Assembly: GCA_965112155.1 (NCBI GenBank)
Contig: OZ218106.1
Length of the DNA: 64,000 nucleotides
Reading direction: 5' to 3' (one strand)
From: Podarcis liolepis
Lineage: Eukaryota
The position numbers and the translations under genes are program-made. The notes beneath the pieces were generated by a model. It searched no databases. It had not been told where the DNA came from and was given only the letters and a program-made list of their open reading frames with translations. Each line of letters starts with the position of its first letter. Position 1 is the stretch's first letter. Of this stretch, positions 1-6,140 are shown piece by piece.

Positions 1-615
1 AACCAAGGGGTCTATGAAATACCCTGCAAAGTCTGCCCAGCCACGTACATTGGACAAACAAACAGACGAATAAATGCACGTATCGCAGAACACAAGAATG
101 CCGTCAAAAAAGAAGAAAAAACTTCCTCTCTTTTCCAACACATGAAAGAAACAGGACACGAAATTAATTTTGCAGATTCCAAATTGCTCTTTAACATGGA
201 ACATCACCACAAGAGAATAATCATGGAAGCCATCGAGATAGAGAAACACCCTCACAACATGAACAAGCGTGACGACACGTCCCGCCTGCCAGACATCTGG
301 AAATTAGCCCTCCCCACAAAAACCGACACCAGAACCAGAGGCACACAGAACGCCATCACCAATCAACCACACCAGACCCAAACCCAGACCCTCTCCACAG
401 ATAAATTACAGACACCATCCAGTAGCCAAACCATAGTGGCACCTCCGGATGCTGCACCCCCCTGCTATCCCTACACAGATCTGGCTGGCACAGGGCACAA
501 AACCACAGCTCGCCCCTATACACGAAGCCAAGCCAGAGCACAACTAAGTGCAGTACAGCCATCTTCTCAGAAAAACTCTTCACAAGCTCAAGAGGTCAAG
601 ACACGAAAGCTTTAG
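1..615 (+). CDS. C-terminal part of the PLE ORF: GIY-YIG endonuclease plus a T/Q/P/S-rich tail (5'-partial)
   Basis: The frame is open from base 1: NQGVYEIPCKVCPATYIGQTNRRINARIAEHK...SSLFQHMKETGHEINF...MEAIEI...NMNKRDD. It shows GVY/YIG motifs, CxxC plus two His (the PLE CCHH motif) and the conserved R, E and N. Stop TAG at 613-615. Confidence 0.9.
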   Translation, partial: NQGVYEIPCKVCPATYIGQTNRRINARIAEHKNAVKKEEKTSSLFQHMKETGHEINFADSKLLFNMEHHHKRIIMEAIEIEKHPHNMNKRDDTSRLPDIWKLALPTKTDTRTRGTQNAITNQPHQTQTQTLSTDKLQTPSSSQTIVAPPDAAPPCYPYTDLAGTGHKTTARPYTRSQARAQLSAVQPSSQKNSSQAQEVKTRKL

Positions 616-693: not shown

Positions 694-846
694 TAATTAA
701 GGAACAAAAGAAGAAAAGGCACATTAACCTGGGAACTTCCTCTCTGCCCAGAACGTTGGAGGCTATACACCACACCCCCTCAACAGTATTTATAGGAACT
801 CAAACACTGAGATCCTGCTCTGTTCCAGTAACAAGAAGCCGAAAGC

Positions 847-892
847 ACCAGCCTGAAGATGACGAGTGAGACCTCGTCGAAACGTCGCCTAG
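847..892 (+). ncRNA. Minimal type I hammerhead ribozyme of the PLE pseudo-LTR
   Basis: CTGAAGA (853-859), extra T, stem II GACGAG/CTCGTC with a TGAGAC loop, GAAA (879-882), palindromic CG, then TC with predicted cleavage after 886. Stem I is short and imperfect. Confidence 0.8.
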
Positions 893-937
893 ACACCCCA
901 ACTCTTACACGGGAAGACACCCGAAGACACCAAAACC

Positions 938-940
<3 letters not shown>

Positions 941-994
<54 letters not shown>
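941..994. repeat. (AT)27 microsatellite
   Basis: Perfect dinucleotide run. Confidence 0.98.
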
Positions 995-4975: not shown

Positions 4976-5184
4976 GGGAAGTGGGTGGCGCTGTGGTCTA
5001 AACCACAGAGCCTAGGGCTTGCCAATCAGAAGGTCAGCGGTTTGAATCGCAGCGACGGGGTGAGCTCCCATTGTTCAGTCCCAGCTCCTGCCCACCTAGC
5101 AGTTCGAAAGCACGTAAAAGTGCAAGTAGATAAATAGGTACTGCTCCAGCAAGAAGGTAAATAGCATTTCTGTGTGCTGCTCTG
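4976..5184 (+). mobile_element. Sauria SINE, 5' half only
   Basis: ggtggcgctgtggtctaaaccacagagcctagggcttg...gtgcaagtagataaataggtac; colinear with the copy at 11728. Confidence 0.92.
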
Positions 5185-5388
5185 TTAGGAGAAATTGCTG
5201 TGCAACAATGTGCATATTAGACAAAATTGAAGACACAAAAGTGTGTATTGGGATAAATTTGCACTAAGATGCTGGTGAATTTTCATAAGAGCTTAAAAAA
5301 AATATGTTTAGAAATGTGGGGAACTGAACTTAAGATAGGAAAATTAAAAACTGAGAAAAATTGAAATTGATGGATTCATCCATTCTTA
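5185..5388. mobile_element. Right half of the hAT element family seen at 2451-2941
   Basis: ttaggagaaattgc...gataaatttgcacta...aaatgtggggaactgaacttaagat...catccattctta matches 2700-2941. Confidence 0.75.
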
Positions 5389-5756
5389 ACTTGTTTATCT
5401 TTACTGAAGCTGCAAATTAAACCAGTGTTTCTCAACCTTTTTTCAACCCATACCACCTTTTAGTTAACATGAAAATCCCATGTCCCCCTTCAAACCTGGC
5501 TCCCCCAATTATTTTATCTGAATTTTAAAATGGATAGAAATGTTGGCTTTCCTTTAAAAAAAAGAGACCCTGATATTATACATTGGGGGGCACTTATGGC
5601 CCCCTACTATTTTCATACATGATGCACATAATTTGCTTAAGCTCTGTGCACGAAGGGAGATAAAGTTTGGGTAGGGAAAGGAATTGATAAAACTTAATCT
5701 TCATCTCTGCAGCCAGTTTCCTGAACTGAAATTGCAATACTACTTTGTCACTTTCA

Positions 5757-6140
5757 AGGGAGCTGGGCATGTTTAGCCTGGAGAAGAGGAGGTTAAGGGG
5801 TGATATGATAGCCATGTTCAAATATATAAAAGGATGTCACACAGAGGAGGGAGAAAGGTTATTTTCTGCTGCTCCAGAGAAGCGGACACGGAGCAATGGA
5901 TCCAAACTACAAGAAAGAAGATTCCACCTAAACATTAGGAAGAACTTCCTGACAGTAAGAGCTGTTCGACAGTGGAATTTGCTGCCAAGGAGTGTGGTGG
6001 AGTCTCCTTCTTTGGAGGTCTTTAAGCAGAGGCTTGACAACCATATGTCAGGAGTGCTCTGATGGTGTTTCCTGCTTGGCAGGGGGTTGGACTCGATGGC
6101 CCTTGTGGTCTCTTCCAACTCTATGATTCTATGATTCTAT
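5757..6140 (+). mobile_element. Young 5'-truncated CR1 LINE (ORF2 C-terminus plus 3'UTR)
   Basis: Uninterrupted RELGMFSLEKRRLRGDMIAMFKYIKG...FLTVRAVRQWNLLP...LEVFKQRLDNHM, then a 3'UTR ending in (ATTCTATG)n. Confidence 0.95.

What the first reader, a model, noticed from the sequence alone, without database searches (positions are those of the whole stretch)
787..900. Hammerhead ribozyme in the pseudo-LTR of a lizard Penelope-like element
Seen: CUGAAGA-U-[GACGAG/UGAGAC/CUCGUC]-GAAA-CG-UC about 60 nt downstream of TATTTATA. The catalytic core is complete and stem II is a perfect 6 bp. Known: PLEs carry minimal type I hammerheads whose tiny palindromic stem III (here a CG palindrome) favours cleavage as a dimer of tandem copies. 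Inference: this copy defines the self-cleavage site of the element RNA after C886. Stem I (accagc/gcctag) is weak, so this copy may be partly inactivated or may need an alternative pairing partner.
Basis: partly seen in the sequence, partly recalled or inferred. Interest (0 to 1): 0.7.

Follow-up and report, generated by a model that had tools for sequence, protein, structure and literature searches.

The report
Penelope hammerhead with genomic cleavage footprint
This is a known type of tiny self-cutting RNA motif that overlaps the start codon of a very abundant young jumping gene; this truncated copy is likely inert, but across the genome an excess of sister copies begins exactly at the predicted cut site, which likely records the motif cutting some of the element's RNAs in living cells.

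Summary
The motif is real (853-886) and is a minimal type I hammerhead of a young Penelope/Poseidon retroelement, a known kind. At least 6,050 copies exist. The weak 2-bp stem I is the family norm (98 of 100 listed copies identical), not decay of this copy. The bulged U of the core belongs to the AUG of a 906-aa RT/GIY-YIG ORF, as in the anole element PAc. The window copy is a 5'-truncated right arm of a head-to-head insertion in (TA)n and is likely inert. The added evidence is genomic: 5' ends of sister copies pile up at the inferred transcription start (window 817) and again at G887, the first base after the predicted cut: 15 of 98 arm ends; 9 independent clean junctions against 1.6-2.0 expected under a microhomology-aware null. 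This suggests that a minority of template RNAs were cleaved in vivo; most were not. No cleavage was shown directly, and one control position (+26) is also a hot spot. Unchecked notes of this scan report similar peaks in other Penelope families; my paper searches found none in print.

The parts
1..615 (+). 3' end of the Penelope/Poseidon ORF (GIY-YIG endonuclease and C-terminal tail, stop at 613-615); the arm starts about 50 bases left of the window
787..794 (+). TATA box TATTTATA, 30 nt before the inferred transcription start
   Evidence: function inferred from the 5'-end pile-up
817..817 (+). Inferred RNA 5' end (G, -42 from the ATG)
   Evidence: 9 of 30 scripted arms end here; 18 of 100 listed rows by eye
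851..852 (+). Stem I 5' strand (GC), pairs with 887-888
   Evidence: family norm
853..859 (+). Core CUGAAGA (C3-A9)
859..861 (+). ATG made of A9, the bulged U and G10.1; start codon of the 906-aa ORF in tandem copies
   Evidence: same arrangement in PAc; peptide footprint in 7 homologs
861..878 (+). Stem II, 6 bp, with 6-nt loop
   Evidence: covariation in distant motifs
879..886 (+). GAAA core, ACGU palindrome (882-885, loop-less stem III) and C17 (886); predicted cut between 886 and 887
   Evidence: junction peak
884..894 (+). Predicted competing hairpin GUC/GAC that hides the cleavage triplet in the monomer
   Evidence: prediction only
903..927 (+). Predicted hairpin holding the CCCGAAGA motif, also seen downstream of the PAc ribozyme and of distant short-stem-I motifs
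942..942 (+). 3' end of this arm (+84), one of the two fixed family ends (+84, +118)
941..994 (.). (TA)n target microsatellite

Best explanation
The motif is the minimal type I hammerhead of a young Penelope/Poseidon retroelement and overlaps the element's start codon; it likely cuts after C886 only in a minority of RNAs, predicted to need the element's protein and a second copy, and this truncated copy is likely inert. Shown: anatomy, copy number, ORF overlap, insertion layout and the two pile-ups of 5' ends. Inferred: transcription starts at 817; naked RNA misfolds; the protein binds the ORF-start region and helps two ACGU palindromes pair; cleavage would remove cap, 5' UTR and AUG and so stop translation; reverse transcription primed at +84 and +118 runs off the RNA 5' end, which is usually the transcription start and sometimes the cut site. 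Most insertions are made from templates with an intact ribozyme sequence.
For: 6,050 copies within one mismatch, 0 for the reversed control. ORF of 906 aa from the core ATG in 5 of 5 internal units read in three loci, RT and GIY-YIG, 45% identical to an Anolis carolinensis protein. The anole element has the same overlap and protein-assisted, core-dependent cleavage (PMC11167929). Arm ends: +29 holds 15 of 98, other positions at most 7; 9 independent clean junctions against 1.6-2.0 expected under a microhomology-aware null that fits the other positions with r 0.48-0.64, P about 1e-4 before correcting for 29 positions. Genome-wide non-SNP rows, same design, counted by eye: +29 47 (40 after dropping 7), +26 23, +21 8, +30 7, +28 0. 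Partner arm starts at or downstream of the arm's end in 26 of 28 insertions at +29 but 8 of 28 at +26/+21. Internal positive control: the same kind of peak at -42, 30 nt after the TATA box.
Against: No cleavage, cyclic phosphate or circle was observed. RNA-seq of a related species showed no pile-up of read ends at the site (fragmented libraries can hardly show one), and the PAc paper found none. +26 is also a hot spot (23 rows, 9 of one microhomology type), so +29 is only 1.7-fold above the best control, and distinct junction types are similar in number (about 16 against 13, by eye). The partner asymmetry is weaker than the Fisher value (1e-6) suggests: the null share of upstream partners was 0.16-0.64 depending on the kernel, and three further +29 rows were deletions that continue upstream. 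+29 was the position I expected, read from the same lists used for the test. The dimer fold is 4.7 kcal/mol worse than two monomers. Conservation inside the family is uninformative because it is young and the core is also coding.
Confidence: 0.72

Rival explanations
1. The hammerhead is a passenger that does not cut in vivo; the +29 peak comes from joining chemistry (GC microhomology, C-rich partner) or RT stalling.
For: +26 shows that sequence alone makes hot spots. Thousands of arms cross the intact motif. In PAc, core mutants do not affect insertion in vitro. Some PLE clades thrive without hammerheads (PMC8557442 passages).
Against: The microhomology-aware null predicts 1.6-2.0 arms at +29 against 12 seen. 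The equally short CG palindrome one base away (+28) gives 0 junction rows while +29/+29 joins occur in 7 insertions plus one variant, in both subfamilies. Other C-ending positions hold 2-4 arms. Stem II covaries across distant motifs.
Confidence: 0.25
2. Cleavage is a routine step followed by ligation: unit-length circular RNA is the main template, so an intact ribozyme in the copies reflects the ligated junction, and multi-unit arms come from rolling round the circle.
For: One insertion has a 3.8-unit arm of 100% identical units and a 1.6-unit partner. All terminal copies stop at +84 or +118, short of the 172 ORF bases that PAc needs, so long copies need a tandem or circular template. Proposed in PMC4209133.
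Against: The larger pile-up at -42 needs linear, uncleaved RNA that starts at the promoter. Read-through of tandem arrays explains multi-unit arms as well. A ligated junction cannot be told from a tandem one in sequence.
Confidence: 0.2
3. RNA 5' ends at +29 are real but made by something else: a second, TATA-less start or a cellular nuclease.
For: The junction data show RNA ends, not their chemistry. A cap-derived extra C could not be told apart at either peak.
Against: The peak is at the exact base predicted by hammerhead geometry; no TATA-like box lies 30 nt upstream; in PAc core mutants abolish RNA cleavage and endonuclease mutants do not.
Confidence: 0.08
4. One reading: this particular copy has a decayed stem I.
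For: Only 2 contiguous pairs.
Against: 98 of 100 listed copies, and full-length ORF-intact units, have the same stem I; 37 of 51 distant motif clusters have 2 or fewer contiguous pairs, though many of these may be decayed copies.
Confidence: 0.02

Closest known systems
PAc, Poseidon element of Anolis carolinensis, and its protein-assisted hammerhead (Frangieh et al. 2024, PMC11167929)
   Same: Single RT-GIY-YIG ORF that starts inside the ribozyme; AT-rich target; two RT start sites that define a tail; similar sequence downstream of the cut; 45% identity to an A. carolinensis protein with an M-x6-ETS start (that this record is PAc itself is my inference).
   Different: Cut 28 nt after the A of ATG, not 26; different reading frame across the core (SKRR, not ETS). 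For PAc no RNA ends at the cut site were found; here genomic 5' ends are enriched there.
Minimal hammerheads (min-HHR) of metazoan PLE pseudo-LTRs (Cervera and De la Pena 2014, PMC4209133)
   Same: Complete core, base between 9 and 10.1, G10.1-C11.1, long helix II, palindromic 15.2-16.2 with no loop, thousands of mostly truncated copies.
   Different: Helix I is 2 bp (paper: 4-5 bp typical, 2 bp in D. virilis); the family is nearly invariant, like D. virilis and unlike most genomes in that paper.
Insertion unit of endonuclease-bearing PLEs: partial tandems, adjacent inverted 5'-truncated copy, 30-40-bp one-sided tail (Craig et al. 2021, PMC8557442)
   Same: All present; tail 34 nt; microsatellite target.
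   Different: Here quantified: 98 of 100 pairs with two clean tail ends have one +84 and one +118 arm, and 101 of 102 typed pairs share a subfamily.
Non-LTR retrozymes (bioRxiv 10.64898/2026.07.22.740005, abstract seen)
   Same: Hammerhead-bearing, related to PLE pLTRs.
   Different: This family is autonomous with an intact ORF; the short copies are inverted stubs, not tandem non-coding arrays.

Membership tests
Minimal type I hammerhead of metazoan PLEs | Core CUGANGA, GAAA, UH | tested here: met
Minimal type I hammerhead of metazoan PLEs | Unpaired base between 9 and 10.1; G10.1-C11.1; long helix II | tested here: met
   U860; G861-C878; 6 bp
Minimal type I hammerhead of metazoan PLEs | Palindromic 15.2-16.2, little or no loop III | tested here: met
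   ACGU 882-885
Minimal type I hammerhead of metazoan PLEs | Short helix I closing the motif | tested here: inconclusive
   2 bp only; first two pairs covary weakly across 51 distant clusters (28 and 26 of 51 against 17 expected); no variation inside the family
Minimal type I hammerhead of metazoan PLEs | Lies in the pseudo-LTR of a PLE | tested here: met
Minimal type I hammerhead of metazoan PLEs | Self-cleavage as dimer or with protein | not testable with these tools
   indirect only: junction peak
Rfam hammerhead families | Match to a curated covariance model | tested here: not met
   no hammerhead match at E up to 10
Penelope/Poseidon clade of EN+ PLEs | One ORF, RT followed by C-terminal GIY-YIG, DKG motif | tested here: met
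   RVT_1 358-536, GIY-YIG 705-744 (below Pfam cut-off), DKG at 282
Penelope/Poseidon clade of EN+ PLEs | No extra zinc-finger motif in the RT-EN linker (present in Neptune and Nematis) | tested here: met
   linker has a single Cys; definition
Penelope/Poseidon clade of EN+ PLEs | RT phylogeny | not tested
   no tree built; similarity only
Penelope/Poseidon clade of EN+ PLEs | Partial tandems, inverted 5'-truncated copy, one-sided 30-40-bp tail | tested here: met

The most novel reading that the evidence does not exclude
The genome keeps a fossil record of the ribozyme at work: insertions copied from RNAs cut at the hammerhead site. Because the cut falls 28 nt into the ORF and the core itself supplies the AUG across the Poseidon clade, the ribozyme is a protein-triggered switch by which the element's own protein decapitates its mRNA, while one RNA is copied twice, from +84 and +118, to make each two-armed insertion.
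Probability: 0.45. Interest if true: 0.65.

Novelty: new member of a known kind. Interest (0 to 1): 0.45.

Why it matters
Whether PLE minimal hammerheads cut in cells is open: they are slow in vitro (PMC4209133), need protein in PAc and left no trace in anole RNA-seq (PMC11167929), and their function is called unclear (PMC8557442). A young family with thousands of junctions turns this into a count that any good assembly can repeat, and gives a rough size for the cleaved fraction: about one cut-site end for every 7-10 transcription-start ends, under 1% of all arms. The overlap with the start codon suggests a testable role in shutting off translation. The motif at this locus is ordinary.

Tried and rejected
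Rfam scans found no hammerhead. A DNA search of the own genome returned nothing because common words are skipped; patterns were used instead. A pattern for other hammerhead families in this genome gave 3 hits against 4 for the reversed control, so no sister family was available for covariation; metagenome motifs were used, of which only 7 of 116 loci showed PLE protein similarity nearby. Four public runs laid on 760-945 showed no compensatory change in stems I or II. No RNA holder was listed as such for the element. A spliced alternative stem I, as in D. virilis, was considered: the only GT..AG in the 5' UTR spans 24 nt, too short. A long extended stem I was not supported by folding. A snap-back model (second arm copied from the first cDNA) was rejected because either arm can be the longer. 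A cap-derived extra C could not be scored. Lunse et al. 2017 is not held in the library; I know it only through a review passage. No complex or structure was predicted.

Full report
Observation. The sequence is as described: CTGAAGA (853-859), T860, stem II GACGAG/CTCGTC (861-866/873-878), GAAA (879-882), CG, T885, C886. It is the single match of a minimal-hammerhead pattern in the window, with none in 100 shuffles. Rfam has no matching hammerhead model at E 10. Coordinates below are counted from the A of the ATG at 859 (+1), so the predicted cut lies between +28 and +29.

The element. The 34-nt motif occurs 6,050 times in the genome within one mismatch, 0 times reversed. Anchoring on the flanks only gives 5,281 copies; 98 of the first 100 listed are identical over the 50 inner bases, both stem I strands included. 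The 2-bp stem I is therefore the family's design. Tandem copies give a 2,962-bp unit whose ORF starts at the ATG formed by A9, the bulged U and G10.1 and runs 906 aa (5 of 5 internal units), with RT and C-terminal GIY-YIG, DKG motif and no zinc finger in the linker: Penelope/Poseidon type. It is 45% identical over 773 residues to an Anolis carolinensis protein. The closest named hit is from a viper (82%). The overlap looks general: 7 of 27 scanned homolog windows show M-x-ETS or M-x-KRR, the two peptide readings of GAAACGTC, 40-46 residues before a conserved LYG; 14 of the 27 were mis-anchored, so 7 of 13 true N-termini by eye; background 1 of 2,550 windows.

This copy. It is not full length. 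With the upstream DNA it is the right arm (about -906 to +84) of a 2-kb head-to-head insertion, the last of three such pairs nested in one (TA)n. It ends at +84, short of the first 172 ORF bases that PAc RNA needs. In a read-through transcript it would pair with its antisense arm. RNA reads of a related species show strand-specific A>G changes over this region, including the GAAA core (27 and 28 of 84 reads in one run), the pattern of double-strand editing; no matched DNA was available. So this copy is likely inert.

Folding. Stem II always forms; in the monomer the GUC triplet is predicted to pair with 892-894. Forcing the open core costs 3.7 kcal/mol, and the symmetric dimer scores -18.1 against -22.8 for two monomers (the model ignores core contacts). 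This fits the published need for a helper. In 119 motifs from metagenome contigs, selected on the core only and reduced to 51 clusters, stem II pairs 2-5 are Watson-Crick in 37, 39, 30 and 32 of 51 against 13-20 in shuffles, stem I pairs 1-2 in 28 and 26 against 17 (the shuffles ignore relatedness).

Insertion geometry. Of 113 head-to-head pairs, 100 have two clean tail ends; 98 combine one +84 and one +118 end; the other 13 have odd or cut ends. 101 of 102 typed pairs share a subfamily and arms differ at 0.27%. These ends match the two RT start sites of PAc. One RNA copied twice, two RNAs of one locus, or later conversion between arms would all fit.

5' ends as a record of RNA ends. Arms that stop between -16 and -72 (817 rows) pile up at -42, window 817, 30 nt after the TATA box: 9 of 30 scripted, 18 of the 100 listed by eye, with a downstream shoulder. 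Arms that stop between +41 and +13 (237 rows, first 100 listed; all 100 fetched and scored, 2 indel rows dropped) peak at +29: 15 of 98, 12 independent, other positions 0-7, again with a downstream shoulder (+31 to +33: 20). A null built from microhomology, distance and the search filter fits the other positions (r 0.48-0.64) and expects 1.6-2.0 at +29 against 12 clean arms, 9 independent. Genome-wide lists of one design, sorted by eye: +29 58 rows, 11 SNP, 47 left, 40 after dropping two transposon-like inserts, one poly-T, one deletion with SNP and three deletion rows; +26 23 of 35; +21 8 of 20; +30 7 of 29; +28 0 of 3. At +29 the partner arm starts at or downstream of +29 in 26 of 28 insertions, as expected if nothing upstream existed on the template; at +26 and +21 the like holds in 8 of 28. 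Against: +26 is a hot spot too, junction types are about as many there, the null for partner position is wide (0.16-0.64 upstream), and the evidence is indirect. I put in vivo cleavage at about 0.6-0.65. The excess is some 30-45 arms against roughly 260 at -42 and over 6,000 intact, a rough estimate from filtered counts.

Mechanism. Transcription from the pseudo-LTR gives a 42-nt leader whose first AUG is the core AUG (shown in sequence; start inferred). Protein is made, binds the ORF-start region and, by analogy with PAc, lets the ribozyme fold, probably as a dimer through ACGU (inferred). Cleavage would remove cap, leader and AUG; the next in-frame Met is residue 183. Reverse transcription from +84 and +118 on nicked (TA)n gives two arms that run to the RNA 5' end or stop early and join by microhomology. 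One insertion with 3.8 identical units in one arm shows that templates can present four intact ribozyme sequences in a row, either uncleaved tandem RNA or a circle.

What is known. PMC4209133: parts 1-2 of 4 read (results, discussion). PMC11167929: parts 1-2 of 4 read, three supplements as extracted text only; figures and the GenBank file could not be seen and may show genomic 5' ends. PMC8557442 and PMC6765202: passages. The 2026 retrozyme preprint: abstract and outline. Four full-text searches listed no paper on genomic 5' ends at a PLE hammerhead cut site; I judged most hits from titles and abstract starts, and subscription papers are not covered. Unchecked notes of this scan report like peaks in other Penelope families; I read them after my own counts, and they are not independent support.

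Verdict. A new member of a known kind, ordinary at this locus, with a family-wide footprint that makes an open question testable. Interest 0.45.

Noticed in passing
L001:5258-8942 (ends at window 942): Three head-to-head insertions of two subfamilies nested in one (TA)n: six hammerhead copies in 3.7 kb, three on each strand.
   Followed up: yes
L032+L314 (G000:C1:22498729-22514632): A 16-kb single insertion: 3.8 units, 100% identical, facing 1.6 units; ORFs intact.
   Followed up: partly
L032:3400-4200: RNA reads of a related species show strand-specific A>G / T>C at dozens of places, likely double-strand editing of the inverted arms; low, mostly sense coverage extends into the ORF.
   Followed up: partly
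window 903-927: Both subfamily-diagnostic changes (C904T, A925G) keep the predicted hairpin as G-U pairs; among 51 distant motifs the CCC(A/G)GAAGA-like motif occurs in 10 of 43 with short stem I and 0 of 8 with long stem I.
   Followed up: partly
one search list: In asymmetric +29 junctions with a visible partner end, the arm that reaches +29 is the +84 arm in 14 of 18, hinting that it is made first.
   Followed up: no
G000:C7:64428871 and C7:64430334; C6:5607056 and C6:5607154: Both arms of one insertion share a private deletion or point change, which fits one template or later conversion.
   Followed up: no
G000:C3:91154592 and C12:64714932: Two inserts with the same terminal sequence, hAT-like by recall, sit at the same place just beside the cut site.
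   Followed up: no
one search list: Five of 100 listed arms end at -5 (window 854), three of them running straight into TA; unexplained.
   Followed up: no
window 5730-6136: CR1-like LINE 3' fragments on both strands (label recalled, not tested); a Sauria-SINE-like stretch near 4980-5190 (recalled).
   Followed up: no
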